A DNA stretch of 32,000 bases from Nanobdellota archaeon (GCA_042850255.1 AP031373.1:570001-602000); one strand, 5' to 3'; counted from the stretch's first letter, positions 6,911 through 32,000 are shown. Made by a program: numbers and translations. Notes: generated from the sequence alone by a model not told the origin.

Positions 6911-7510
6911 TTATATATTCATAAAATCTTTTATTAATAATTCATTTATTTTATTTTCATCCAAAGATAAATATCTTAAATAATTTATTTCTTCTTTATT
7001 CAATTTTAATAACTTAGATCCATGGAATCCTTTTGATTTATCATTTTTTACATCTAATATAGGTAATAGTATTGATATTCCATTTTCTTCTAACAGTATT
7101 TGATTTAATTTTCCCTCCGAATTTTCAGAATCTTTATCTATCAATATTTTAGATATTATAACAACTTTCTTCTCATTATATATCTTTTCCAAAAATTCTC
7201 CATAACTTTTATTTTTAATATTATATAAATTATAAAAATATAATTCTCCATTATTTTCAATTAAAAAATCTATTTTTACATTTCCTTCAATGTTAAATTC
7301 ATTATATATCATTGATTTTTTATCATTTTTTATCCTAAATTTTATATTACAATTTTTTAAATTAAATACATTATAATAAATCTTTTCATCTAAATTTATT
7401 TCAAATATTTTATCATAATCTATATTATATTCATTTTTAATTATTTCATATTTATCAAAGTTCCTATCATAGTATTTCCTAAACAATTCTTTAAAAAATG
7501 TTGAATCCAT
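6911..7510 (-). CDS. Miniature SufB/SufD-like protein (candidate Fe-S scaffold partner of SufC)
   Basis: 199 aa, overlaps the sufC stop by 20 nt. C-terminus 'LPILDVKNDKSKGFHGSKLLKLNKEEINYLRYLSLDENKINELLIKDF' aligns by eye to the SufB/D signature '[48 protein letters not shown]'. Confidence 0.4.
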   Translation of the reverse strand: MDSTFFKELFRKYYDRNFDKYEIIKNEYNIDYDKIFEINLDEKIYYNVFNLKNCNIKFRIKNDKKSMIYNEFNIEGNVKIDFLIENNGELYFYNLYNIKNKSYGEFLEKIYNEKKVVIISKILIDKDSENSEGKLNQILLEENGISILLPILDVKNDKSKGFHGSKLLKLNKEEINYLRYLSLDENKINELLIKDFMNI

Positions 7511-8180
7511 ATTCTTCTATTTTATCCAATATTTCTTTACCTCCTTGATATTTTACTTCCCCATTTAAAATTATTACTACTTTATCTATATCTAAATCTT
7601 TTACAAATTTTAAATTATGCGAAATTAAAATTATCATTCTTCCTTCTTCTTTAAATTTCTTTAAATAATCCTTTAATTTTTCCAAAAATTCTATATCAGA
7701 TCCTGAATCTATTTCATCAAATATTAATATTTTTCTATTTAATAATATAGATAATAATAACGAAAATCTTTTCTTTTCTCCTCCAGATAAGTTATAATTT
7801 ATACCTCTATCTAAAAAATCATCTGGTAATCCTAATTCTTTTCCTAATTTTTTTATTTCTTCTTCATTATAATTATTTAAAATATTCATTAATAATGTTC
7901 TTGTTTTAATATTTTCTATCTCTATTGGATTTTGAAATGAATAATATATATATTTTGCTATATTTTCTGTTTTTTCATTTGTTATATCAATATTATCTAG
8001 TATTATTTTCCCATCTTTTTTGAAATTTTCATCATTTAATATTGCTTTGCACAAAGATGTTTTTCCAGAACCATTTGGTCCAAATATTAAATATAATTTT
8101 CCATAATCAAATTCTAAATTTACATTTTTCAATATTTTTTTATCTTCATAATATATATTAAGATTTTTTATCTCGAGCAT
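7491..8180 (-). CDS. sufC: Fe-S cluster assembly ATPase SufC
   Basis: Walker A 'GPNGSGKTS', 'FQNPIEI', signature 'LSGGEKKR', Walker B 'ILIFDEIDSGSDI'. Colinear with E. coli SufC through to the C-terminal 'EEYGF'. Confidence 0.8.
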   Translation of the reverse strand: MLEIKNLNIYYEDKKILKNVNLEFDYGKLYLIFGPNGSGKTSLCKAILNDENFKKDGKIILDNIDITNEKTENIAKYIYYSFQNPIEIENIKTRTLLMNILNNYNEEEIKKLGKELGLPDDFLDRGINYNLSGGEKKRFSLLLSILLNRKILIFDEIDSGSDIEFLEKLKDYLKKFKEEGRMIILISHNLKFVKDLDIDKVVIILNGEVKYQGGKEILDKIEEYGFNIF

Positions 8181-17281: not shown

Positions 17282-18697
17282 TTAGTGACTTATATTTATT
17301 TGTCTTTCATTTATTTTATAATTTGCTATAAATATTGAAAATATTCCTGAAATTATCATAAATATTATTCCAAATAATGATATATAATTAAATGCAGTAG
17401 AAGATGGTAAAAATCCTAATACTAAATATTCATTATTTATATTATAAACTAAAGGTACCTGGTATATCTGCATTAATGTTGTAGATAATACAGGTCCAAT
17501 TGCACTTCCCAATGTCCTTAATAATGTATTCAATCCTAATCCTGTAGTTCTATATTCATCAGGCAAAGATATAGAAACCATATTTACTAATGGGATCATT
17601 AAAGAAACCATTCCTATAGCCATAACAAATCCATCTAATAATAAATCAAAAGTTGTAGATCTATTAATTATTAGTAATATGAAAGAAATTACAGATAAAA
17701 ATATACCCAAAAATATTATTGGTTTTGGTCCTCTTTTTGGTAATAACTTTCCAAATAAAGGTCCAAAAATTAGCATTCCTAAAGATATTGGAGATATTAA
17801 AGTTCCTGATTGAACAATTGTTAATCCTAATCCATATGGTTTTGGTAATTGTGTATAATATGTAAAAAATATAAATAAAGAAAATAATGATATTCCTGAA
17901 AATACTCCTATAATATTTGATACTAAAAAGTTTCTTATTTTTAATAAATCAAATCTTAATAATGGTTCTTTTAATCTTTTTTCTATTAATATAAATATCA
18001 TAAATGTAATAATACTAAATATTAAATAATATATTTCACTAAACCATCCATATTCTGATCCTAAAGTTAAATAAATTAATAATAATGATACAGAAATTGC
18101 TAAAAATGTTGAACCAAAATAATCTACAGATTCTTTTAATCTTTTTCCTGTATGTGGTAAATAAATATATGATAATATAAATAATATTGCAGATAATATT
18201 GCTGCAGTATGAAATGCAGCTGGCCAACCTAAATATTGAACAATATATGATCCAATTAATAATCCTAAGGCAGGACCAATTCCTAATGTTGCACTTAAGA
18301 TTCCTTGTGCATATGCTAATTTTTCTTTAGAATATAAATCTGTAATAATTGATATTGCGATAGGAAATACAGCAAATCCTAAACCTTGTATAGCTCTGGC
18401 AAATATTAAAAAATATATATTCGGAGAAAAACCAGCTAATGATACTGCAATAATATAAAATAATATTGCCAATAAATATGTTCTTCTTTTTCCATGAATA
18501 TCTGCAACTTTTCCCATAATTGGAGAAGCTGCAGCACCGACTATCATATATGCAGTTGTAACCCAGCTTACTATATTTTCAGATACTCCAAAATATTGTT
18601 GTATATCATATAAAGCAGGAACAACCATTGTTTCAACATAATTTACTATAAGTAACATGGAAGCTAATAGTAACAATATTTTGGTATTATAATCCAT
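17282..18697 (-). CDS. MFS transporter (DHA2/EmrB-like, about 14 TM)
   Basis: 471 aa and polytopic. MFS motif A-like 'GKVADIHGKRRTYLLA'. Confidence 0.8.
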   Translation of the reverse strand: MDYNTKILLLLASMLLIVNYVETMVVPALYDIQQYFGVSENIVSWVTTAYMIVGAAASPIMGKVADIHGKRRTYLLAILFYIIAVSLAGFSPNIYFLIFARAIQGLGFAVFPIAISIITDLYSKEKLAYAQGILSATLGIGPALGLLIGSYIVQYLGWPAAFHTAAILSAILFILSYIYLPHTGKRLKESVDYFGSTFLAISVSLLLIYLTLGSEYGWFSEIYYLIFSIITFMIFILIEKRLKEPLLRFDLLKIRNFLVSNIIGVFSGISLFSLFIFFTYYTQLPKPYGLGLTIVQSGTLISPISLGMLIFGPLFGKLLPKRGPKPIIFLGIFLSVISFILLIINRSTTFDLLLDGFVMAIGMVSLMIPLVNMVSISLPDEYRTTGLGLNTLLRTLGSAIGPVLSTTLMQIYQVPLVYNINNEYLVLGFLPSSTAFNYISLFGIIFMIISGIFSIFIANYKINERQINISH

Positions 18698-18791: not shown

Positions 18792-20315
18792 ATGGATAAA
18801 AAATTACTATTATTTCTATTATTATTTCTTCTATTTCCAATACATTCACAAATGAACCTAATTATTTATCCTCAGGTAAATCAAATAATTGAAGGAGGAC
18901 AAAATTTTGTACCAATAACATTTACAATAATAAATGCAGGTCCAACACTATTTAATGTCACATTTTATCCAATAAATGAATTTCCATTTTATCAGGCAAA
19001 TTATTATAATAATACACAAAATATAACAATAGAACAAATAAATCAAGGACAAAATATTACAATAACACTTTTCTATTATATTTCTCCAAATATAAATCCT
19101 GGTATATATGAAATACAGGTTGGAGCATATGAATATTATTATGGATTACAAAATTCTGAAATATTAAATACATCAATACCAATATTAGGTTATACAAATT
19201 TTTCTATTAACTCATTTTTTGGAACTCAAAATAATATAATTTTACCTTATAATAATCAAAAAGATGTGCCATTAACATTTGTTATAATAAATGATGGAAA
19301 TACAATACTAAATAATGTAACAGTATATTTCAATAATAACTCTAATATAGAATTTTTAGAAAATCAATATTATATAGGAATATTACCAATAGGACAGCCT
19401 TATTTTTTAACTACATATGTAAATATTAATAATTTATCTACAGGTATAAATTATGTAACATTAAATATTTCATATTTTGATGGAGATTATCAAACAATAA
19501 ATGTTCCAATTAATTTTGGATATACTAATATAGGAATAAATACTTATACTAATCCTGTAACAATATATCCGGGTAATCCTGTTCTATTAGATTCTATAAT
19601 ATTTAATTATGGTAATCAACCTGCAGGTAATTTTTATATAAATATATATTCTCCATTTGAATTATTAACATCAAATTATTATAATTTGGGAATATTGTAT
19701 CCAGGGTCTATATATAATATTTCATCATTAATATATATTCCAAGTAATACTTCTCCAGGTTATTATCCAATAATTTATGAATTAAATTATAATAACCAAC
19801 AATATAATTATACATATTATATACATGTATTGGGAGAAGCAAACATTTCAATAACAAATGTATATTATAATAATTTATATCCAGGATCTTCAGAAGTACC
19901 CATTACTGTTAATATAAAGAATATAGGAAATGTTGAAGCAAAGAATTTAATTGCAATAATTGGATCTAATAATGTAATATATCCATATGTAAGTTCTTCA
20001 AATCCATTAAGAGCATTAACAGCTTCAGAAATAAATGTAGGAAATTTATATCCAAATCAAAGTATAAATATAACATTTATAATAAAAGTATCATCTGGAG
20101 CTAATTATGGAAATTATTCTTTACCAATAATATTTGTATGGAATCAATCAGAATCTTTATATCCATTTTCTCAAGAAGAAAATATAAATATACAAGTAAT
20201 TGAACCTTTCTATTATAATCCAGAATTTTATATTAAAATAATAATCCCAATAATAATAGTAATAATTATTGGACTTATGTTATATAAATTTAGAAAAAGA
20301 AAGAATAAAAAATGA
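18792..20315 (+). CDS. Secreted, C-terminally membrane-anchored multi-domain surface protein (COG1361/CARDB-like beta-sandwich repeats)
   Basis: Signal peptide 'MDKKLLLFLLLFLLFPIHSQ'. About four ~100-aa units with the recurring pattern 'V(P/L)ITFxIxNxGxxxxxNVxV...PGxYxI'. C-terminal TM 'IIIPIIIVIIIGLMLY' plus 'KFRKRKNKK'. Dense in N-x-S/T sequons. Confidence 0.6.
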   Translation: MDKKLLLFLLLFLLFPIHSQMNLIIYPQVNQIIEGGQNFVPITFTIINAGPTLFNVTFYPINEFPFYQANYYNNTQNITIEQINQGQNITITLFYYISPNINPGIYEIQVGAYEYYYGLQNSEILNTSIPILGYTNFSINSFFGTQNNIILPYNNQKDVPLTFVIINDGNTILNNVTVYFNNNSNIEFLENQYYIGILPIGQPYFLTTYVNINNLSTGINYVTLNISYFDGDYQTINVPINFGYTNIGINTYTNPVTIYPGNPVLLDSIIFNYGNQPAGNFYINIYSPFELLTSNYYNLGILYPGSIYNISSLIYIPSNTSPGYYPIIYELNYNNQQYNYTYYIHVLGEANISITNVYYNNLYPGSSEVPITVNIKNIGNVEAKNLIAIIGSNNVIYPYVSSSNPLRALTASEINVGNLYPNQSINITFIIKVSSGANYGNYSLPIIFVWNQSESLYPFSQEENINIQVIEPFYYNPEFYIKIIIPIIIVIIIGLMLYKFRKRKNKK

Positions 20316-21979: not shown

Positions 21980-23106
21980 ATAAAAATATAAATATTTTAA
22001 TAATATTTAGAATATTTAGAAGTTCAATTGCAGGATATATTACAGTATTTTTACCATTATTTTTATATAATGTATTAAAATTATCTTTAATTGATATAGG
22101 AATATTATTTGCATTGGGATCTTTATTTCAATCAATTTTATCATTTTTTATAGGATATTTAGGAGATAAATATAATAAGAAAAAATTATTATTTTATATT
22201 TCATTATTATTCCCTTTATCTTTAGTTATTCTTTATTTTTCTTCAAATATATATTTATTGATTATTTCATTTATTTTAGGTGGATTTGGGACTGTTGGTG
22301 CATTGGCTGGAGGCGGTGTTGGAGCAGTTGTTACTCCTATAATGAATTCTTTAATAACTGGATATGTAAATGAAAATAGAGAAAAGATTTATTCATATTT
22401 TATAATTATTTCAGGTTTGTCAGGTTCTTTAGGTGCATTATTGTTGTTCTTTTATTATAAATTTGTTTTAATATTTGGAATAATTATTTTATTATTTTCT
22501 TCTTTACTATTATTAAAATTAGATGAACCAAAAGAGATTATAATAAATAATAAAGAAGAAAGAAAAGTTGAAGGTTTAATAATATTATCTGGATTTTTAA
22601 ATGGAGCTTCTGCAGGAATAATTTATAATTTCTTACCAATAATATTTAACCATTATTTAGATTTTTCAAAAGATCAAATTAGTTTAATATATACTATTAC
22701 AGGTTTAATATCTGTTATATCACTATATTTTATTGAAAAATATATTAATTGGAATATATTTAAGAAAATTGTTTCATTTAGAATTATTTCATCAATATTT
22801 TTAATAATATTTTTAATTTCTACAATTTTTGTTTTATCAATTATTTCAATATTATCATTCATAATTTATACAACATTTAGGGTTGCATCAATTCCTTCTC
22901 AACAAGAAGTTATATCAGAAAATATTGGAAAAAGATTATCTGAAACATTTGGAGCAAATCAAAGTACAAGAATTTTAGGATCATTTATATTTCAATCTTT
23001 AGGAGGATATTTATTATCTTTATCAATTATTGCACCATTTTTAATATCTTCGATATTTTTATCAACAAGCGCATTCATTTATTATAAAATTAGAAGAATG
23101 AATTAA
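21976..23106 (+). CDS. MFS-type transporter
   Basis: 376 aa with about 10-12 TM helices. Motif-A-like 'GYLGDKYNKKKLLF'. Confidence 0.6.
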   Translation: MNKNINILIIFRIFRSSIAGYITVFLPLFLYNVLKLSLIDIGILFALGSLFQSILSFFIGYLGDKYNKKKLLFYISLLFPLSLVILYFSSNIYLLIISFILGGFGTVGALAGGGVGAVVTPIMNSLITGYVNENREKIYSYFIIISGLSGSLGALLLFFYYKFVLIFGIIILLFSSLLLLKLDEPKEIIINNKEERKVEGLIILSGFLNGASAGIIYNFLPIIFNHYLDFSKDQISLIYTITGLISVISLYFIEKYINWNIFKKIVSFRIISSIFLIIFLISTIFVLSIISILSFIIYTTFRVASIPSQQEVISENIGKRLSETFGANQSTRILGSFIFQSLGGYLLSLSIIAPFLISSIFLSTSAFIYYKIRRMN

Positions 23107-24689
23107 CTTATATAAATTGAAGGCATTACTCCATTTGGTGGATATGCTCTTGCAACTACCCATTCTACATATTGATAAGAAATACTTCCGCCAGTACCTG
23201 CTCCTATTTCTAATGTAGGATATTGAAATGGACTATAATTTAAATTAGCATATGTATAATTATTATAATTTACTGAATACGTATCTAATAATGTTAAAGG
23301 CACCCAAACCTGATTTGAACTATATTGATACCAACCTGTTTGTGCATAAGTATTATTAACTATAAGATATGTATAAAATGTACCTGCATATGTAGTAAAA
23401 GATGTCTGAGATAGTATATTATTGGTATATGCTGATTTTAAATATGTAGCTGGTCCTGATTCCGAATTACATGATCCAGGATAATATTCGAATTGGACAA
23501 ATGTAGAAGAACTTGATGCAGGTGTAGATCCACCACAAGTAGTAGGATTTACATTATATGCATCGATTTGATTATTCGTATTTCCAAATAAGGATATCGT
23601 ATTAGCATCTGCACCAGAACTTTCATACCAAGCTTCTTCTACAATTATTGGTATTTCTGGTATAGCTTCATTATTATATGGTAATATAAATGTTCCTTCC
23701 CACTCGCTATTATTTAACATTTCTATACCATTCGATGTTATAGTAGGAGTATAAGATGTATGGGCAGTAGAAGATTGATATACTATCCAACCATCAAAAG
23801 TATTATTAAAATACCCATAAGATATAAATACATATTGACCATTATCATAACCTTGAATAACTTGAGGGGATGCTCCTACATATGGATAAAATAGTTGATA
23901 ATAATTATTATTTCCGATACCCATATATACTGTTATATTGCTATTTGCTGGAATACCATTTGGAATATTTACCCACCATACATCGCAACTTACTCCACCA
24001 TCATTTAATTGGCCTTCAAACCAAGAATATGATAGTCTATTATTAAAATAAAATAATACATTATCTCCATTAGAATTTATTTCATTAAATAATGTTTGAT
24101 TATTTACATATGCAAAATTATTACCTAAATTTATTGTTCCATTACATATTGCAATATCTTGTTGGAATGGAGCAGAGGTATTTTGGTTTTGATTATTAGA
24201 TAGAATTATTGGAATAGGATTAGAAAAATATAAAACTGTATATCCTGATCCTAGATTTTTACTTTCACTTACTCCATTATAATTTATTGTTATTTGTGGA
24301 TTAATATTTATATTACTATTATATGCACATACTGTATTATTTACATAGCATATACTTTGTTGATTTGGTAATATTATATTATTATTACATATAATATTAT
24401 TTCCATTAATAGATATTACATTATTATTTTCATTTATAGTTATTATAGAATTATTTATATCTATTGGAATATTACCATTATTATAGATAATAAAATATAA
24501 TCTATTACTAGAACAATATGTATTTACAATACTAAATGATGCATATTGAGATTGTTTATTTATATTAGAATTTACAGAAGAAATTAATCCATTAAACATA
24601 CCTGTTAGAAATGCATATGTTAATCCAGAAATTGAAACTACAATAACTATTAATAATATAGTTGATATTATTGGAGATATAGATTTCAT
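23103..24689 (-). CDS. Pilin-signal-peptide surface protein, shorter paralogue of 2446-4731 (uninterrupted DUF2341-like module)
   Basis: 'MKS/ISPIISTILLIVIVVSISGLTYAFLTGMF'. Colinear with the paralogue over aa 1-150 (40/60 identical in the first 60 aa by hand count) and from 'PFQQDIAICNGT' to an almost identical end, 'YQYVEWVVARAYPPNGVMPSIYIS'. Confidence 0.7.
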   Translation of the reverse strand: MKSISPIISTILLIVIVVSISGLTYAFLTGMFNGLISSVNSNINKQSQYASFSIVNTYCSSNRLYFIIYNNGNIPIDINNSIITINENNNVISINGNNIICNNNIILPNQQSICYVNNTVCAYNSNININPQITINYNGVSESKNLGSGYTVLYFSNPIPIILSNNQNQNTSAPFQQDIAICNGTINLGNNFAYVNNQTLFNEINSNGDNVLFYFNNRLSYSWFEGQLNDGGVSCDVWWVNIPNGIPANSNITVYMGIGNNNYYQLFYPYVGASPQVIQGYDNGQYVFISYGYFNNTFDGWIVYQSSTAHTSYTPTITSNGIEMLNNSEWEGTFILPYNNEAIPEIPIIVEEAWYESSGADANTISLFGNTNNQIDAYNVNPTTCGGSTPASSSSTFVQFEYYPGSCNSESGPATYLKSAYTNNILSQTSFTTYAGTFYTYLIVNNTYAQTGWYQYSSNQVWVPLTLLDTYSVNYNNYTYANLNYSPFQYPTLEIGAGTGGSISYQYVEWVVARAYPPNGVMPSIYIS

Positions 24690-24866: not shown

Positions 24867-25085
24867 ATGAGGACTATAATGATTAGAGATGAAGTATATG
24901 AAAAATTAAGAAAATTAAAAAGAAAAGGAGAATCTTTTAGCGATCTAATAGAAAGATTAATAAAATTAAGGAAAAAAAGAGAAAACAAAGTAAAAAAATT
25001 ATTAGAAAAATATGCAGGTACTCTGGAAGATGATGAATTAGTAAAAATAATAGAAGAAGAAAGAAAGAAATTTTATATTAAATGA
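24867..25085 (+). CDS. vapB: VapB-type antitoxin (COG1753/UPF0330-like)
   Basis: 72 aa. 'TIMIRDEVYEKLRKLKRKGESFSDLIERLIK' matches the small archaeal antitoxin family paired with PIN toxins. 4-nt overlap with vapC. Confidence 0.7.
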   Translation: MRTIMIRDEVYEKLRKLKRKGESFSDLIERLIKLRKKRENKVKKLLEKYAGTLEDDELVKIIEEERKKFYIK

Positions 25086-25486
25086 TACTAGATTCTTCAA
25101 TAATAATAAGATCATTTAGAAATAAAGAATTTTATAATAAAATAAAAGATAAAATAAAAGATCCTAAAATAACTTATATCACTTTTTATGAATTATTAAA
25201 GGGAGCATTCTATAAGAAATATAAGTATAATGATTATATAAATTATGCTAAAATTCTAAATATATTGAAAAATATTAAAATAATAAAAATAAGGAGAATA
25301 GATATAATATTATCATCTAAAATATGGGCAAAACTGAAAATTAATGGAATAGAAATAAATGATGCAGATATTATAATTGCAGCTATGTGTATTAATAGAA
25401 AAGAAAAACTATTAACTTCTGATAAAGATTTTGAAAAAATAAAAAATATATATAAAGATTTTAATGTAGAAATAATAGAAGTCTAA
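25082..25486 (+). CDS. vapC: PIN-domain ribonuclease toxin VapC
   Basis: 'MILDSSIII' (first acidic residue), 'NDADIIIAAMCI' and 'LLTSDKDFEKI' form the PIN acidic set. Confidence 0.8.
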   Translation: MILDSSIIIRSFRNKEFYNKIKDKIKDPKITYITFYELLKGAFYKKYKYNDYINYAKILNILKNIKIIKIRRIDIILSSKIWAKLKINGIEINDADIIIAAMCINRKEKLLTSDKDFEKIKNIYKDFNVEIIEV

Positions 25487-25512: not shown

Positions 25513-25586
25513 TGGGGCGGGTGGGATTTGAACCCACGACCTTCCGGTCTTCAGCCGGACGCTCTCCCGGTCTGAGCTACCGCCCC
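25513..25586 (-). tRNA. tRNA-Phe (anticodon GAA)
   Basis: Minus strand: GGGGCGG-TA-GCTC-AGACCGGGA-GAGC-G-TCCGG-CTGAAGA-CCGGA-AGGTC-GTGGG-TTCAAAT-CCCAC-CCGCCCC-A. Confidence 0.9.
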
Positions 25587-27435: not shown

Positions 27436-28614
27436 TTATTCATATCTTAATGCAACATTTGGATCTATTCTAGAAGCTCTTATTGCAGGTAAAGTTCCTG
27501 AAAGTACTCCAACTCCAAAAGGTAATAATAATGATAATAGTATTAATTGAATATTTACATAAGGTTGTAATGCGCTGTATCCTAAGAATTTAAATATAAA
27601 AGATGCTATATAAGAAAATGCGTATCCCATAAGCATCCCAAATATCCCTCCAACTAATCCTATAATACCAGATTCTAATAAAAATAATAATAAAACTTGA
27701 TAACTCTTCATTCCCAAAGCCTTTAACAATCCTACTTCTTTGTATCTTTCTAATGTAGATGTATACATCGTATTTAATATATTTATTGCAGATATTATAA
27801 TAGATATAGATGCTAATATTAATGAGAATAAAGTTAATCCTCCTAAAACACTATTTATTGATTTTTCAATTGATTGAGCAGTAATAATTATATAACTTTG
27901 TCCCTTTAAACTATTTATATAATTTTTTATTGATGTATATGCAAGATTAAAGTTTGAAACAATTATTATCAAATAATTATAATTTATATTTCCAAATAAT
28001 TTTTCATAATATCCTTCTGGAAATATTATTGAATCATCTATTTCTGGAGATCCTGTTTGTTGAAATATTCCAACTACTTCACATTTTTGTCCAAAAATAT
28101 TTATATAATCTCCAACACTTATTTTTTCATTTTGTATAGACTTTGTTGCAACATCATATCCTATATCTACCTGACACTGATAATTATTATTAATCAAAGT
28201 TCCTTGATATATTTTATAATCCATATATTGTAAATAATTAGAATATTTAGTATTTATTACCAAAACTTCTGCTCCTGCTTGTTGATTATTATATGAAAAA
28301 GTAGTAGGAGTTAAATATGCAGGAATTGTCAATTCAACTCCAGGTAATCTTTGTATATTTTGAATAAAATTATTTGTTATATAACCAGTTATACTTGCAC
28401 TAAATCCAATTCTTGCACCAGGATATACATATATTACTTTACTACCTATAGTATTTAATTGACTTTGTATATAATATTGTAAGCCATTTGATAAAGAAAT
28501 TAGTACAAATATTGTTGCAACTCCTATTGTAATTCCTAATGAAGTTAAAAAAGTTCTAATTTTTTTAGTTCTTAAATATTTTATTATAAAAAATATATAA
28601 TCCTCTATATTCAT
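27436..28614 (-). CDS. MacB/FtsX-type ABC transporter permease (4 TM + large extracytoplasmic domain)
   Basis: 392 aa: TM1, then an extracytoplasmic domain of about 220 aa, then three C-terminal TMs. Ends with the family-typical 'PAIRASRIDPNVALRYE'. Confidence 0.8.
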   Translation of the reverse strand: MNIEDYIFFIIKYLRTKKIRTFLTSLGITIGVATIFVLISLSNGLQYYIQSQLNTIGSKVIYVYPGARIGFSASITGYITNNFIQNIQRLPGVELTIPAYLTPTTFSYNNQQAGAEVLVINTKYSNYLQYMDYKIYQGTLINNNYQCQVDIGYDVATKSIQNEKISVGDYINIFGQKCEVVGIFQQTGSPEIDDSIIFPEGYYEKLFGNINYNYLIIIVSNFNLAYTSIKNYINSLKGQSYIIITAQSIEKSINSVLGGLTLFSLILASISIIISAINILNTMYTSTLERYKEVGLLKALGMKSYQVLLLFLLESGIIGLVGGIFGMLMGYAFSYIASFIFKFLGYSALQPYVNIQLILLSLLLPFGVGVLSGTLPAIRASRIDPNVALRYE

Positions 28615-30026
28615 TTCTTTCTTCTTTTAATATAATATATTATTCCTATAATTATTATAATTAATATTAATACTCCAAATATATTTATTCCTCCGCTTTT
28701 TATTCTTATATATGTATATCCCAATTGTGCTAATGTGAAATTATATGTTTTTGTATAATCATTTCCAAATATATCAGTATAATATAAAGTTAGATATATT
28801 GTTGAATTTGGCAATGCATTACTTATTGTAAATACTATAGAATTTGAATTTCCAGGATCCAATTCTCCTACATATCCTTGAGATGGTGTTAATATACAAT
28901 TTTTACAATAAGCATTTACATATAAATTATATGCTGGAGCATTTCCATAATTAAATATATTCAATGTTATAGTTCCATCAGAATAATATCCAGATAATGT
29001 TATTTTTGGATATGCATTTATATTTTCTACTATATTCCCTTGTAAATTATATTGGATAGAGTTTGAATAGTAAGAAACTGTAAATGGTATATATATTGTT
29101 CCATAAACTCCATTTTGTACTATTATATTTAATGGAATTGTTATAGACTCTCCAGGATTTATATTTTGTATATAAATTATATTATTTACTATTGAAACAT
29201 TACTTTGTCCGAATTGCAATGATAAATCATTTATTGGAGAGTTTGTAGGATTATATAATGTTATATTTATTGTATTTTCCCCTATATTTAAATAAGAAAC
29301 ATTATATAATAGTTCTATTTTATTATTTTCAGGTTCTATTGGTAAATTTATGGTTTCTATATAATTATATATATTTCCAAGAGAATCTTGGAATTGTATA
29401 TCTAATGGTATTGTACAATAATTATTTGCATAATTAGCAGGTATTATTACTTTAAAGTTAATTAATTGAGAACCTGAAAAGTTAGAAAAATATATTGAAG
29501 ACGGATTTATTGAACATTCAGAATAATTTGAATATATTAATACATTATATATTTCTCCTCCATTATCTGTTAAATTTATTGATAAATTTGCAATTGCTCC
29601 ATAATAATTATTAGAATAATAATATTCTGGAATAGTAATATAAGGGATATTTTGAACAATTAGTGGATAAAATTGAGAAAAATATCCTATACCTTGAGTA
29701 TTTACATAACTTCCATTAATAACTATATTATAAAAACCTTGAGGGCAATTTTCATATACTTGTAAAGGAAAGCAATAATAATTATTTGGACTTATAGAAG
29801 TTATAGTTAAAGAAGTTATATTGGAATAAACACAGTAAGGATAATAAATATTCAAATTTATTGAATTATCCATTACTCCATCATTATTAAATAAACAAAC
29901 TTGCAGATTTACATTATTGTTACTATTTACTATCTGAGGTGCTATCTTTGTTATATTTACCTGTAAAGAAAATATAGGATATAATAGTAATATTAGTGAT
30001 AATATAGTCAATATTTTCTTATTCAT
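28611..30026 (-). CDS. Secreted, C-terminally anchored multi-domain surface protein (COG1361/CARDB-like), encoded inside the ABC operon
   Basis: Signal peptide 'MNKKILTILSLILLLYPIFSLQ'. Repeated beta-sandwich-like units, e.g. 'ITLNIFNYGNAPAYNLYVNA...GELDPGNSNSIVFTI'. C-terminal TM 'GVLILIIIIIGIIYY' plus 'IKRRKK'. 4-nt overlap with the permease start. Confidence 0.6.
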   Translation of the reverse strand: MNKKILTILSLILLLYPIFSLQVNITKIAPQIVNSNNNVNLQVCLFNNDGVMDNSINLNIYYPYCVYSNITSLTITSISPNNYYCFPLQVYENCPQGFYNIVINGSYVNTQGIGYFSQFYPLIVQNIPYITIPEYYYSNNYYGAIANLSINLTDNGGEIYNVLIYSNYSECSINPSSIYFSNFSGSQLINFKVIIPANYANNYCTIPLDIQFQDSLGNIYNYIETINLPIEPENNKIELLYNVSYLNIGENTINITLYNPTNSPINDLSLQFGQSNVSIVNNIIYIQNINPGESITIPLNIIVQNGVYGTIYIPFTVSYYSNSIQYNLQGNIVENINAYPKITLSGYYSDGTITLNIFNYGNAPAYNLYVNAYCKNCILTPSQGYVGELDPGNSNSIVFTISNALPNSTIYLTLYYTDIFGNDYTKTYNFTLAQLGYTYIRIKSGGINIFGVLILIIIIIGIIYYIKRRKK

Positions 30027-30057
30027 TTATTTTAGATTCTTTGATATATTTAAAAAA

Positions 30058-30756
30058 CTATTTTAATAGTTCCAGTGCTTCTTCTATTGTTGCATTATAT
30101 GATAATATTTTACCACTTCTTATTACTACTATTCTATTTGTTTGTTCTGCAATCTTTGGATCATGCGTTACTATTACTACTGTTTTACCTTCTTCTTTAT
30201 TTAAATTTTTCAATATATTCATAACATCTTTTGCGGATTTTTCATCTAAATTTCCAGTAGGTTCATCCGCTAAAATTAGTTCAGGATTATTTATTAATGC
30301 TCTTGCAATTGCAACTCTTTGTTGTTGTCCTCCAGATAATTGATTTGGATAATGGTTTAATCTATTACCTAATCCTAATCTTTCTAAAATTTCTTTTGCC
30401 TTTTCTATATTATTTTTTCCAGAAATTCTTGAAGGTATAGTTACATTTTCTAATGCGGTTAAATAATTAAATAAATAAAATTGTTGGAATACAAATCCTA
30501 TTTTTTTGTTTCTTATTTCTGATAATTTATTATCTGATAAATTAGATATATCTTCTCCAAATAAATAAACCTTACCAGAAGTAGGTCTATCTAATAATCC
30601 AATTATTGATAATAATGTAGATTTACCAGAACCAGAAGGTCCCATAATTGATACTAGCTCACCTTCCTTTATTTCTAAATCAATATTATCCAATGCTTTT
30701 ATCTCACTATCTCCCATTTTATATATCTTTGTCACCTTTTCCAATTTTATTATCAT
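30058..30756 (-). CDS. ABC transporter ATP-binding protein (MacB/LolD, COG1136 type)
   Basis: Walker A 'GPSGSGKST', 'IGFVFQQFYL', signature 'LSGGQQQRVAIARAL', Walker B 'LILADEPTGNLD', H-loop 'VTHD'. Confidence 0.9.
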   Translation of the reverse strand: MIIKLEKVTKIYKMGDSEIKALDNIDLEIKEGELVSIMGPSGSGKSTLLSIIGLLDRPTSGKVYLFGEDISNLSDNKLSEIRNKKIGFVFQQFYLFNYLTALENVTIPSRISGKNNIEKAKEILERLGLGNRLNHYPNQLSGGQQQRVAIARALINNPELILADEPTGNLDEKSAKDVMNILKNLNKEEGKTVVIVTHDPKIAEQTNRIVVIRSGKILSYNATIEEALELLK

Positions 30757-30807
30757 AATATCTTATTTATAATTTTTGTATAAAAATATGGTAGAAAGTT
30801 CCTTATA

Positions 30808-31077
30808 GTGGAATATCAAATATTCTATATGGAAAGAGAAATTCTTATACTTGTAATATTTTTTGTAGTATTTGCAGTATTGTTTATGTATATATACTGT
30901 TTTTTAACTAATATGAAAGAGTTTGGAATTGGATTAAAATGTATTGCATGGGAAAATCAACAAATTACTATAAATAATATACAACATAATATTATTAATT
31001 ATATTAATGGTTATGAATCTGTACAGATTTTGTATAATCTAAATGAAGAAATAGGAAATGGATGCGATTATATATAA
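30808..31077 (+). CDS. Hypothetical small membrane protein
   Basis: The ORF starts with GTG at 30808; an alternative ATG lies at 30829. One hydrophobic helix. A 'TATAAAAAT' box lies about 26 nt before the GTG. No family recognised. Confidence 0.3.
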   Translation: MEYQIFYMEREILILVIFFVVFAVLFMYIYCFLTNMKEFGIGLKCIAWENQQITINNIQHNIINYINGYESVQILYNLNEEIGNGCDYI

Positions 31078-31107
31078 TTTTTTTAAAGATTACTTTTAAT
31101 TTTTTTA

Positions 31108-32000
31108 ATGATTGAAATAGATGGTTCTTATGGAGAAGGAGGAGGACAAATATTAAGGACAGCATTATCCTTATCTGTAATATTTAAACAAGATATTTAT
31201 ATAAAAAATATTAGAAAAAATAGAAATCCTCCTGGATTAAAGAATCAGCATTTACATACAATATTATTATTAAAGAAAATTACCAATGCGGAGACAAATG
31301 AAATAAAAATAGGATCTGAGGAATTATATTTTAAACCTAGAAATATAAATCCTGGAATATATAAGGAAAATTTAGAGACTGCAGGTTCTATTACATTATT
31401 ATTACAAGGTATATTACTACCTTTATTATTTTCAAAAGATAAAATAAAATTAAAGATAATAGGAGGAACTGATGTAAAAAATTCTCCATCTTTAGATTAT
31501 TTTAGATATGTTTTATTACCATATTATAATATATTTGGAAAAGTAAAATTAGAAATAATAAAAAGGGGATTCTATCCAAAAGGAAATGGAGAAATAAAAT
31601 TAGAAATATATCCAAGATATCATTTAGAAGATTATGATAATATTAACTCTTTTTTAAAAGATATAAATAATATAAAAGAATTAAATATTCCTGAAGAAAA
31701 TTCTGAAGAAATATATATTTATTCTGTTGCTACAAAGGATTTAAAAGATAGAAATGTTGCAGAAAGAATGATAAATTCTGCAATAAAATTATTTTACAAA
31801 TATCCAGAAATAAAAATTAGAAGATATATAGAATATGTAGATTCTTTATCTACAGGAGCAGTAATTACTATAGTAGGTAAAAAAGGAGATTATTATTTTG
31901 GATCGGATTTTTTAGGAGAAAAAGGTTTGTCATCAGAGATAGTTGGAAAAAATGCTGCAGAAAAATTTTTGAAGGTATTAGAAAACAATGTTTCTGTTGA
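31108..32000 (+). CDS. rtcA: RNA 3'-terminal phosphate cyclase RtcA (partial; continues past the window end)
   Basis: Hand translation from the ATG at 31108: 'MIEIDGSYGEGGGQILRTALSLSVIF...NIRKNRNPPGLKNQHL...ETAGSITLLLQ...GGTDVKNSPSLDY'. No stop codon before 32000. Absent from the ORF track because the frame is open-ended. Confidence 0.85.
   Translation, partial: MIEIDGSYGEGGGQILRTALSLSVIFKQDIYIKNIRKNRNPPGLKNQHLHTILLLKKITNAETNEIKIGSEELYFKPRNINPGIYKENLETAGSITLLLQGILLPLLFSKDKIKLKIIGGTDVKNSPSLDYFRYVLLPYYNIFGKVKLEIIKRGFYPKGNGEIKLEIYPRYHLEDYDNINSFLKDINNIKELNIPEENSEEIYIYSVATKDLKDRNVAERMINSAIKLFYKYPEIKIRRYIEYVDSLSTGAVITIVGKKGDYYFGSDFLGEKGLSSEIVGKNAAEKFLKVLENNVSV

What the first reader, a model, noticed from the sequence alone, without database searches (positions are those of the whole stretch)
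27436..30756. MacB/FtsX-type ABC operon with a large anchored multi-domain surface protein encoded between ATPase and permease
The gene order on the minus strand is ATPase (30756-30058), a 31-nt gap, a 471-aa signal-peptide protein with repeated CARDB/COG1361-like beta-sandwich units and a C-terminal TM anchor (30026-28611), then a 4-nt overlap into the 4-TM MacB-type permease (28614-27436). MacB/FtsX-family ABC systems are established mechanotransmission machines that act on extracytoplasmic partners (FtsEX-EnvC, LolCDE, MacAB). I infer that the embedded surface protein is this transporter's partner or substrate. That would make it an ATP-driven surface or adhesion module rather than a conventional importer or exporter. 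I know of no experimental description of this archaeal arrangement.
Basis: partly seen in the sequence, partly recalled or inferred. Interest (0 to 1): 0.7.

Follow-up and report, generated by a model that had tools for sequence, protein, structure and literature searches.

The report
Archaeal MacB-type ABC pump with CARDB partner
This is a three-gene operon for a MacB-type ABC machine whose third gene, a membrane-anchored string of Ig-like (CARDB) domains, proves to be a widespread, archaea-only companion of such pumps that sits where related bacterial pumps carry a membrane-fusion adaptor, and nobody appears to have studied it experimentally.

Summary
The operon is ATPase (30058-30756, -), a 31-nt spacer, a 471-aa anchored protein (28611-30026, -), then a 4-nt ATGA overlap into a 4-TM MacB-type permease (27436-28614, -). 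The window is from Nanobdellota archaeon YN1.

The middle protein has no direct Pfam hit. Its AF2 model shows four beta-sandwich domains. A profile-profile match (99%, E 1e-17) links it to a family in which 34/40 members are Pfam CARDB and which NCBI names "COG1361 S-layer family protein".

The arrangement is not a one-off:
- In 80 reference loci, 39/48 archaeal ATPase-permease pairs enclose such a gene, against 0 true cases in bacteria.
- 16/22 bacterial loci carry a HlyD-type membrane-fusion protein; 0/58 archaeal loci do.
- 6/6 loci anchored on the middle protein are next to MacB permeases.
- Genes mostly overlap or abut.

The partner relationship is well supported. The best mechanistic reading is an archaeal accessory subunit functionally replacing the bacterial adaptor in an extrusion pump. 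This is inferred, not shown. I found no experimental description. New variant of a known kind; interest about 0.6.

The parts
30058..30756 (-). ABC ATPase (NBD), 232 aa, MJ0796/LolD/MacB-NBD type
   Evidence: PF00005 E 3.5e-37. Best NCBIfam matches are MacB, LolD and DevA, all below their equivalog cutoffs. Best PDB match is M. jannaschii MJ0796, E 8e-72. All catalytic motifs are present.
30027..30057 (-). 31-nt spacer between ATPase stop (TAG) and the middle gene's ATG
   Evidence: Read from the sequence. The same 31-nt spacing occurs in the Nanopusillaceae relative L001.
28611..30026 (-). Type-I membrane-anchored protein, 471 aa: signal-like N-terminus, four beta-sandwich (CARDB/COG1361-family) domains, juxtamembrane AQLGY motif, C-terminal TM helix, KRRKK tail
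   Evidence: Topology. AF2 model pLDDT 76 with four beta domains. Generic tandem Ig-like fold matches only. hhalign 98.9%, E 1e-17, to the CARDB-positive family over residues 248-432. 100% identical to NCBI YN1_6750.
28611..28614 (-). ATGA overlap of the middle-gene stop and the permease start (translational coupling)
   Evidence: Sequence read. The median middle-to-permease spacer over 41 triads is 0 nt.
27436..28614 (-). MacB-type (type VII ABC) permease, 392 aa, 4 TM with an extracytoplasmic MacB core domain between TM1 and TM2
   Evidence: MacB_PCD plus FtsX. PDB sequence hits MacB 2e-30, YtrF and Spr0695. The AF2 model (pLDDT 78) superposes on A. baumannii MacB with TM-score 0.79.
30757..31086 (.). 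Divergent intergenic region (about 330 nt) between the ATPase start and an RtcA-like gene running off the window. It contains a TATA-like TTTTTATA at 30779-30786, 23-30 nt upstream of the ATPase ATG
   Evidence: The TATA-like match is weak evidence in a 22% GC genome. No Rfam hit.
18792..20315 (+). Orphan paralog of the middle protein (507 aa; signal-like N-terminus, beta-rich repeats, C-terminal TM plus basic tail) with no adjacent ABC genes. Possibly a second client or partner, or an independent surface protein
   Evidence: hhalign against the ABC-linked family gives 96.6%, E 6e-10, covering residues 156-507 including the TM. Weak NPCBM_assoc hit. Its neighbours are an MFS transporter and a 555-aa ORF not scanned against Pfam.

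Best explanation
The locus is a three-gene operon for a MacB-type (type VII) ABC machine made of three parts. The first is a cytoplasmic ATPase with intact catalytic motifs. The second is a 4-TM permease with a MacB-like extracytoplasmic domain, presumably a homodimer because there is only one permease gene. The third is a type-I membrane-anchored protein with four tandem CARDB-family beta-sandwich domains.

I propose that the anchored protein is the dedicated third subunit of the pump, and that it is the archaeal functional counterpart of the HlyD-type membrane-fusion adaptor that the bacterial relatives of this pump carry. In this model its TM helix and juxtamembrane motif dock against the permease. 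Its two conserved membrane-proximal domains lie beside the permease's extracytoplasmic domain. The variable distal domains reach toward the S-layer. ATP binding and hydrolysis then drive mechanotransmission that expels a substrate from the outer leaflet or the pseudo-periplasm. The substrate is unknown and may be a toxic peptide or an amphiphile.

Shown here: gene content, folds, archaea-wide conservation, tight gene coupling, and mutually exclusive distribution with MFPs. Inferred: physical contact, an adaptor-like role, and export direction. My confidence that the protein is a dedicated partner of the ABC system in some way is about 0.8. My confidence in the specific adaptor or accessory-subunit-of-an-exporter model is about 0.5.
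For: (1) Conservation. 39/48 archaeal ATPase-to-permease pairs have a gap of at least 600 nt, and 38 of these hold an ORF of 275-1566 aa with a signal-like N-terminus, a C-terminal TM and a basic tail. In bacteria the figure is 1/20, and that one is an unrelated distal ATPase (Fisher p 3e-9). (2) 34/40 of these proteins are Pfam CARDB, and the YN1 family is homologous to them. (3) Reciprocal test: 6/6 family members on long contigs lie directly upstream of MacB permeases, with an ATPase in the cluster in 5 and the flank ending early in the sixth. (4) Coupling: median spacers are -4 nt and 0 nt, and about 30/41 junctions of each kind are 15 nt or less. (5) The middle-protein distance matrix tracks the permease (Mantel r 0.80, above the ATPase-permease value of 0.69). 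(6) Complementarity: a HlyD-type MFP lies directly upstream of the ATPase in 16/22 bacterial loci, CPR bacteria included, and in 0/58 archaeal loci and not in this window. (7) The permease is closest to adaptor-dependent pumps: MacB TM-score 0.79, then Spr0695, with the YknZ ectodomain also matching. (8) What is conserved is the membrane-proximal module, meaning the last two domains, the EAxxLG motif, the TM and the aromatic-basic tail. The shortest family members have about two domains. (9) PadR or MarR regulators lie upstream in 10/27 loci. From background knowledge, these regulators often control inducible efflux operons in bacteria. (10) The triad is retained in the 0.6-0.77 Mb genomes of YN1, Nanopusillus acidilobi and Nanobdella aerobiophila.
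Against: The middle protein shares neither fold nor gene position with MFPs, which sit upstream of the ATPase, so 'replacement' is an analogy based on distribution. The Mantel correlation can arise from shared descent alone. The 80 loci are the best matches to a DPANN-centred permease alignment and are not a random sample. About 10 archaeal loci lack the gene. YN1 also has an orphan paralog away from any ABC genes, which fits a one-machine, several-clients model at least as well. No substrate is indicated, and YN1 has no regulator upstream.
Confidence: 0.5

Rival explanations
1. Cargo or client model (Lol-like). The anchored CARDB protein is the substrate. The MacB-type machine grips its C-terminal TM anchor and uses ATP to extract, release or reposition the protein onto the cell surface or S-layer.
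For: LolCDE, a type VII ABC, extracts membrane-anchored proteins, and LolE and LolC are among the structural matches of the permease. The family's most constant feature is a C-terminal TM plus basic tail with a juxtamembrane motif, which resembles C-terminal sorting signals. Ectodomain length varies widely, 275-1566 aa. YN1 has a second family member with the same anchor away from the operon, which could be another client.
Against: One-to-one operon linkage with overlapping codons across phyla is typical of stoichiometric subunits. By contrast, the lipoprotein clients of LolCDE are encoded all over the genome (background knowledge). The two membrane-proximal domains are conserved, not just the anchor. 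The permease is nearer to MacB and Spr0695 than to LolC/E, and LolC/E equivalog scores are far below cutoff. No acceptor or chaperone gene is seen in the locus.
Confidence: 0.17
2. First reader's model. This is an FtsEX-like signalling or actuation module in which ATP-driven conformational change in the permease controls the surface protein, for adhesion to the host cell or for envelope remodelling, and nothing is exported.
For: FtsEX-EnvC, FtsEX-PcsB and FtsEX-RipC are precedents for type VII ABCs that actuate an extracytoplasmic partner (background knowledge). The system is retained in tiny genomes of obligate ectosymbionts. The CARDB name refers to cell adhesion, and tandem Ig-like arrays are common in adhesins.
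Against: The triad occurs in free-living methanogens, Thaumarchaeota and many others, so host adhesion cannot be its general role. FtsX and FtsE models score poorly or below cutoff: FtsX_actino 34 bits against a cutoff of 250, and FtsE 219 against 265. No enzymatic, coiled-coil or known ligand-binding domain is present. Within Nanopusillaceae the protein diverges only slightly faster than the permease, 69-73% against 74% identity, which is not the pattern of a fast-evolving host-binding adhesin. PadR/MarR regulators upstream in relatives suggest a stress or efflux role.
Confidence: 0.15
3. Unrelated neighbour. The middle gene encodes an independent surface or S-layer protein that merely shares a transcription unit with an ordinary ABC exporter.
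For: Databases call the family 'S-layer family protein'. An orphan paralog exists without ABC genes. About 10 archaeal loci have the ABC pair without it.
Against: Adjacency is conserved across archaeal phyla whichever gene is used as the anchor. Start and stop codons overlap. Distance matrices correlate. The YN1 paper assigns the putative S-layer proteins to other genes, YN1_5000 and YN1_2560 (PMC11420986). COG1361 proteins are also reported in Thermoplasma, which lacks a visible S-layer (PMC10354927).
Confidence: 0.08

Closest known systems
MacAB-TolC and Gram-positive MacB-like pumps with an MFP adaptor (S. pneumoniae Spr0693-0694-0695; B. subtilis YknXYZ)
   Same: The ATPase and permease are homologous. 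The permease model superposes on A. baumannii MacB (TM-score 0.79) and on Spr0695 (0.62), with a 4-TM topology and an extracytoplasmic MacB core domain. Both kinds of system have an operon-encoded, membrane-anchored extracytoplasmic third component.
   Different: No HlyD-type MFP occurs here or in any of the 58 archaeal loci. The third component is an unrelated fold, tandem beta-sandwiches anchored by a C-terminal TM, whereas MFPs have an N-terminal anchor (background knowledge). There is no outer membrane or TolC. The NBD and TMD are separate genes, whereas E. coli MacB is fused.
LolCDE lipoprotein-release system
   Same: Type VII ABC fold. The ATPase scores 263 bits on the LolD model, and LolC/E are structural matches. 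Both are ideas about extracting a membrane-anchored protein.
   Different: All Lol equivalog cutoffs are missed (LolD 263 against 308; lolCE 70 against 362). No LolA- or LolB-like gene is present. The candidate client is proteinaceous and TM-anchored rather than lipid-anchored, and it is encoded within the operon.
FtsEX with EnvC, PcsB, RipC or CwlO
   Same: A type VII ABC that acts on an extracytoplasmic partner by mechanotransmission without transport.
   Different: The FtsE and FtsX models fall below cutoff. The partner here has no coiled-coil or hydrolase-activating domain. The permease carries a full MacB_PCD.
M. jannaschii MJ0796 (classic model ABC ATPase; PDB 1F3O, 1L2T)
   Same: Closest solved relative of the YN1 ATPase (E 8e-72). 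It is regarded as a representative MacB/LolD-family NBD (PMC8277102).
   Different: Only the isolated NBD has been studied. From memory, its neighbours include a COG1361-type protein and an FtsX-type permease.
COG1361 / Pfam CARDB 'S-layer domain' proteins; Sulfolobales SlaB-like stalk proteins
   Same: The layout is a signal peptide, tandem beta-sandwich domains and a C-terminal TM anchor. Homologs are named COG1361 by NCBI and hit CARDB.
   Different: The YN1 protein does not reach any Pfam or NCBIfam model directly. There is no evidence that it forms or anchors an S-layer. The comparison with SlaB rests on my memory of its architecture and was not tested.

Membership tests
ABC transporter ATPase (PF00005), MacB/LolD/MJ0796 subgroup | Walker A, Q-loop, LSGG signature, Walker B and H-loop, with best similarity to MacB-family NBDs | tested here: met
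   PF00005 E 3.5e-37. Motifs at residues 39, 90, 140, 160 and 197. Top NCBIfam matches are MacB, LolD and DevA. Top PDB matches are MJ0796, Spr0694 and MacB.
MacB/FtsX-type (type VII) ABC permease | Four TM helices, a large extracytoplasmic domain (MacB_PCD) between TM1 and TM2, and the FtsX C-terminal domain | tested here: met
   MacB_PCD 4e-21 and FtsX 9e-19. Four TM segments. AF2 model against MacB 5gko gives TM-score 0.79, E 4e-23.
MacB/FtsX-type (type VII) ABC permease | Mechanotransmission: ATP-driven movement of the extracytoplasmic domain, with no transmembrane substrate path | not testable with these tools
   Requires structures in different nucleotide states, or biochemistry.
MacAB-type tripartite efflux pump | HlyD-family membrane-fusion (adaptor) protein encoded with the pump | tested here: not met
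   No MFP homolog in the window or in 58 archaeal loci. Present in 16/22 bacterial loci.
LolCDE | Proteins reach the LolC/LolE/LolD equivalog thresholds | tested here: not met
   LolD 263.2 against 307.75 bits. lolCE 69.8 against 362.45 bits.
FtsEX | Proteins reach the FtsE and FtsX model thresholds | tested here: not met
   FtsE 218.6 against 264.85 bits. FtsX_actino 34.2 against 250 bits.
CARDB (PF07705) / COG1361 family | Direct match of the YN1 middle protein to the family model | tested here: not met
   0 Pfam and 0 NCBIfam families at E up to 0.1.
CARDB (PF07705) / COG1361 family | Homology to bona fide members, and a tandem beta-sandwich fold | tested here: met
   hhalign 98.9%, E 1e-17, to a family in which 34/40 members hit CARDB. 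Some close homologs carry precomputed PF07705. NCBI names relatives 'COG1361 S-layer family protein'. Four beta domains in the AF2 model. The match covers only the two C-terminal domains.
S-layer protein | Forms or anchors the surface lattice | not testable with these tools
   The YN1 paper assigns putative S-layer proteins to other genes (PMC11420986). Localisation data are needed.
Catalogued anti-phage defence systems (PADLOC) | System-specific protein models match the components | tested here: not met
   Only generic ATPase and LolE-like TM matches, and none for the middle protein.

The most novel reading that the evidence does not exclude
Across Archaea, MacB-type ABC pumps have swapped the bacterial membrane-fusion adaptor for an unrelated, C-terminally anchored array of CARDB Ig-like domains. 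The result would be a distinct, uncharacterised class of tripartite envelope machine that spans from the membrane toward the S-layer. In host-dependent Nanobdellota with minimal genomes, it could be one of the few active envelope machines available at or near the host interface, for example to expel host-derived toxic amphiphiles or to handle lipids.
Probability: 0.35. Interest if true: 0.75.

Novelty: new variant of a known kind. Interest (0 to 1): 0.6.

Why it matters
Every well-studied MacB/FtsX-type ABC system works through an extracytoplasmic partner: MacA, LolA, EnvC or PcsB, BceS, TesA. For archaea, which lack an outer membrane, membrane-fusion proteins and murein, no partner has been named.

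This analysis points to one candidate that is conserved across archaeal phyla. Its distribution is the mirror image of bacterial MFPs: about 40/58 archaeal against 0/22 bacterial loci for the CARDB protein, and 0/58 against 16/22 for MFPs.

If the partnership is real, three things follow. It defines an archaeal version of the tripartite pump. It gives a function to the large 'COG1361 S-layer domain' family. It also supplies a compact three-gene target for structural work. In YN1 and its relatives the system survives extreme genome reduction, which suggests it is important for the envelope of these ectosymbionts.

Tried and rejected
1. Pseudo-complex prediction.
2. Natural fusions. The long 'ATPase' ORFs were not Rosetta-stone fusions. 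L023 is probably a frameshifted middle gene plus ATPase. L008 carries an intein-like insertion. L033 is a tandem-NBD ABC ATPase with an N-terminal Cys-rich region.
3. The second 471-aa ORF (17282-18697) is an MFS transporter, so the identical length is a coincidence.
4. Fold search of the middle protein gave only generic tandem Ig-like hits. The afdb50 library was unavailable. Sequence searches of the PDB with both family profiles found no solved relative.
5. I looked for a decayed HAD gene or an RNA gene upstream of the ATPase. There was none. The apparently empty region is a divergent RtcA-like gene running off the window.
6. Permease NJ tree. Partner association follows the domain Archaea rather than a single clade, and YN1 sits on a long branch. 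The tree is too weak to interpret further.
7. Defence-system models gave nothing specific.
8. Nine literature searches, plus reading the YN1, N. equitans proteomics and MacB review papers, found no description of the triad. The Nanobdella surface-architecture paper was not held.
Full report
**Source and observation**

The window matches Nanobdellota (Nanoarchaeota) archaeon YN1. The middle protein is 100% identical to NCBI entry YN1_6750 on a 773-kb contig. GC content is about 22%. YN1 is a cultured ectosymbiont of Sulfurisphaera ohwakuensis (PMC11420986). That paper does not mention this locus.

- The ATPase (30058-30756, minus strand) matches PF00005 at E 3.5e-37 and has every catalytic motif.
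- The permease (27436-28614, minus strand) matches MacB_PCD and FtsX. It has four TM segments with a loop of about 205 residues after TM1.
- I read the junctions directly: TAG, a 31-nt spacer, then ATG; and an ATGA overlap between the middle gene and the permease.
- The operon is bounded upstream by a divergent intergenic region of about 330 nt and an RtcA-like gene that runs off the window. Downstream it abuts a convergent helicase gene with no spacer.

**The middle protein**

It has no Pfam or NCBIfam match at all. Sequence search found only nine relatives, nearly all in Nanopusillaceae.

Hydropathy shows an N-terminal signal-like segment and a C-terminal TM followed by KRRKK. There are 12 N-glycosylation sequons. 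The AF2 model (mean pLDDT 76) shows four beta-sandwich domains strung between those two helices. Foldseek against the PDB returns only generic tandem Ig-like arrays: alpha-2-macroglobulin and C3 MG domains, integrin legs and pilins.

The CARDB/COG1361 label is therefore not directly verifiable on this sequence. It does hold by homology, as described below.

**Conservation, anchored on the permease**

A scan of one genome per species with a diverse permease alignment gave 80 loci, 58 archaeal and 22 bacterial. I called ORFs and classified them with HMMs built from the window proteins, plus a simple topology rule.

A model-free measure is the distance from the ATPase stop to the next permease start.
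- It is at least 600 nt in 39 of 48 archaeal pairs.
- It is at least 600 nt in only 1 of 20 bacterial pairs, and that one involves an unrelated distal ATPase (Fisher p 3e-9).
- In 38 of the archaeal gaps there is one ORF of 275-1566 aa. Every one has a signal-like N-terminus, a C-terminal TM and a basic tail.

The lineages include Woese-, Pace-, Micr-, Aenigm-, Iain- and Nanoarchaeota, Methanosarcinales, Methanoperedens, Methanotrichaceae, Methanolobus (two copies), Desulfurococcales, Caldarchaeum and Thaumarchaeota. Thermoplasmata carries the gene in a different order, upstream of the ATPase.

Further links between these proteins and the YN1 copy:
- 34 of 40 of these proteins hit Pfam CARDB (best E 1e-21), and 27 hit NPCBM_assoc.
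- The YN1 family profile aligns to them at 98.9% probability, E 1e-17, over residues 248-432.
- NCBI names several relatives 'COG1361 S-layer family protein'.
- The triad is also present in Nanopusillus acidilobi and Nanobdella aerobiophila, in a Nanopusillaceae MAG, and in a distant Nanoarchaeota lineage with a PadR gene upstream.

**Conservation, anchored on the middle protein**

To avoid ascertainment through the permease, I sampled six hits of the family profile that sit on long contigs. All six lie immediately upstream of one or two MacB-type permease genes. An ABC ATPase is in the same cluster in five of them, and in the sixth the flank ends before one could be seen.

Gene order differs. 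Two clusters are ATPase-MID-PERM-PERM. Three are MID-PERM-PERM-ATPase, and the sixth is MID-PERM-PERM up to the end of the flank. The constant feature is therefore the middle gene next to the permease, not the middle gene between the ATPase and the permease.

**Coupling and co-inheritance**

- Over 41 triads the median spacer is -4 nt between ATPase and middle gene, and 0 nt between middle gene and permease. About 30 of 41 junctions of each kind are 15 nt or less.
- Mean pairwise identities fall from ATPase (52%) to permease (34%) to the middle protein's C-terminal 200 residues (22%).
- The middle protein's distance matrix correlates with the permease's at r = 0.80. ATPase against permease gives 0.69. 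Both have p < 0.001.
- This fits co-evolution, but shared descent alone could also produce it.

**What is conserved in the middle protein**

An alignment of the C-terminal regions shows four conserved features:
- the end of the last domain (Y-x-D-x-x-N-x-x-Y);
- a juxtamembrane EAxxLG(L/I) motif (AQLGY in YN1);
- the TM helix;
- an aromatic-basic tail.

The profile match covers the last two domains only. The shortest family members are about two domains long. The membrane-proximal module is thus constant, and the distal domains vary.

**Complementarity with bacterial adaptors**

In the bacterial loci, the gene directly upstream of the ATPase is a HlyD-type membrane-fusion protein in 16 of 22 cases, including CPR bacteria. 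Pfam confirmed this for 9 of the 10 proteins tested. No archaeal locus has one, and neither does this window.

The permease's closest solved relatives are pumps that use such adaptors:
- by sequence: MacB 2e-30, YtrF and Spr0695;
- by predicted fold: A. baumannii MacB at TM-score 0.79, Spr0695 at 0.62, and the YknZ ectodomain.

FtsX, FtsE, LolC/E and LolD models all score below their curated cutoffs.

**Regulation in relatives**

PadR regulators lie directly upstream in 7 of 27 loci, and MarR-type regulators in about 3 more. Another PadR example appears. From background knowledge, these regulators frequently control inducible efflux and detoxification operons in bacteria. YN1 itself has no regulator there.

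**Interpretation**

The evidence strongly supports the middle protein as a dedicated partner of the ABC system (about 0.8).

The most economical mechanism (about 0.5) is an accessory subunit of an extrusion pump that takes the role bacteria give to the MFP adaptor. It would be anchored beside the permease by its TM helix, with its conserved proximal domains alongside the permease's extracytoplasmic domain. Physical contact, direction of transport and substrate are all inferred.

The rivals are these:
- A Lol-like cargo model (0.17). It is helped by the sorting-signal-like anchor and by an orphan paralog at 18792-20315.
It is weakened by the presence of the triad in free-living archaea, by the regulators, and by the permease's affinities.
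- Coincidental neighbourhood (0.08).

**Known or new**

Nine full-text searches and several papers gave no description of the arrangement. The main MacB review mentions archaea only through MJ0796 as a model NBD. COG1361 is discussed only as an 'S-layer domain', and is reported even in Thermoplasma spp., for which no S-layer has been visualised. No family member has a solved structure.

The family and its genomic context are visible in public annotation. From memory, they are also visible in COG and arCOG neighbourhood resources, which I could not check. This is therefore a new variant of a known kind of machine, not something categorically new.

**Limits**

- The 80 loci are the best matches to a DPANN-centred query, so they are not a random sample.
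- ORF calls are mechanical.
- The topology rule is crude.
- The NJ tree is not robust.
- The complex prediction could not be run.

Noticed in passing
window 18792-20315 (+): 507-aa orphan paralog of the ABC-linked CARDB-type anchored protein, with the same layout and the same TM plus basic tail, but no ABC genes nearby. It lies between an MFS transporter and a 555-aa ORF that I did not scan against Pfam.
   Followed up: partly
window 23103-24689 (-): 528-aa protein with an archaeal type IV pilin/archaellin-like N-terminus (UpsA-like, E 4e-13; TIGR02537 above cutoff) and a large N/Y-rich C-terminal region. Possibly a surface filament or adhesion component of this ectosymbiont.
   Followed up: no
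window 31087-32000 (+), runs off the window: RNA 3'-phosphate cyclase (RtcA)-like gene, identified by eye from a motif, divergent from the ATPase. It explains the apparently ORF-free 1.2 kb. The 89-aa ORF at 30808-31077 is probably spurious.
   Followed up: partly
L001 4630-5274; L086 1218-1853; L087 1211-1849: In the Nanopusillaceae MAG, N. acidilobi and N. aerobiophila, a HAD-family hydrolase gene directly precedes the ATPase, overlapping its start by 4 nt in two of them and by 1 nt in N. aerobiophila, which makes a possible four-gene operon. YN1 lacks it, and no remnant is detectable in the window.
   Followed up: partly
L008 59-1636 (Methanosarcinales MAG): The triad's ATPase carries an insertion with LAGLIDADG-like and terminal HN-S features. 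It looks like an intein inside the ABC ATPase.
   Followed up: no
L023 5334-6995 (Bathyarchaeota MAG): 553-aa ORF that begins as a signal peptide plus beta-rich ectodomain and ends as the ABC ATPase. Most likely this is a frameshifted middle gene plus ATPase in a long-read MAG, not a true fusion. It implies a MID-ATPase-permease order there.
   Followed up: partly
L055 4683-6287 and L060 (Bipolaricaulota): In L055 a 534-aa protein with no Pfam hit occupies the position upstream of the ATPase where other bacteria have the MFP, and L060 carries a short related fragment. This could be a third kind of accessory protein.
   Followed up: no
A4 alignment; YN1 middle protein residues about 384-396: The last domain of the family carries a strongly conserved acidic loop, Y-I-G-N-x-D-S-D-D-x-E-T. 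In YN1 it is degenerate (YVGELDPGNSNS). It may be a metal-binding or interface site.
   Followed up: no
L034 10226-11062 (-); L036 4718-5560 (-): Two archaeal loci scored as lacking a middle gene have a bitopic protein of about 280 aa on the opposite strand downstream of the permeases, directly after them in L036 and about 2 kb away in L034. The partner may be present there in a rearranged orientation.
   Followed up: no
window 24867-25486 (+) and 25513-25586 (-): Overlapping small gene pair of 72 aa and 134 aa that looks like a toxin-antitoxin (VapBC-like) module, next to tRNA-Phe. The family was not checked.
   Followed up: no
window 7491-8180 (-): A second ABC-type ATPase in the window (E 2e-16 to the triad ATPase). 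Not examined further.
   Followed up: no
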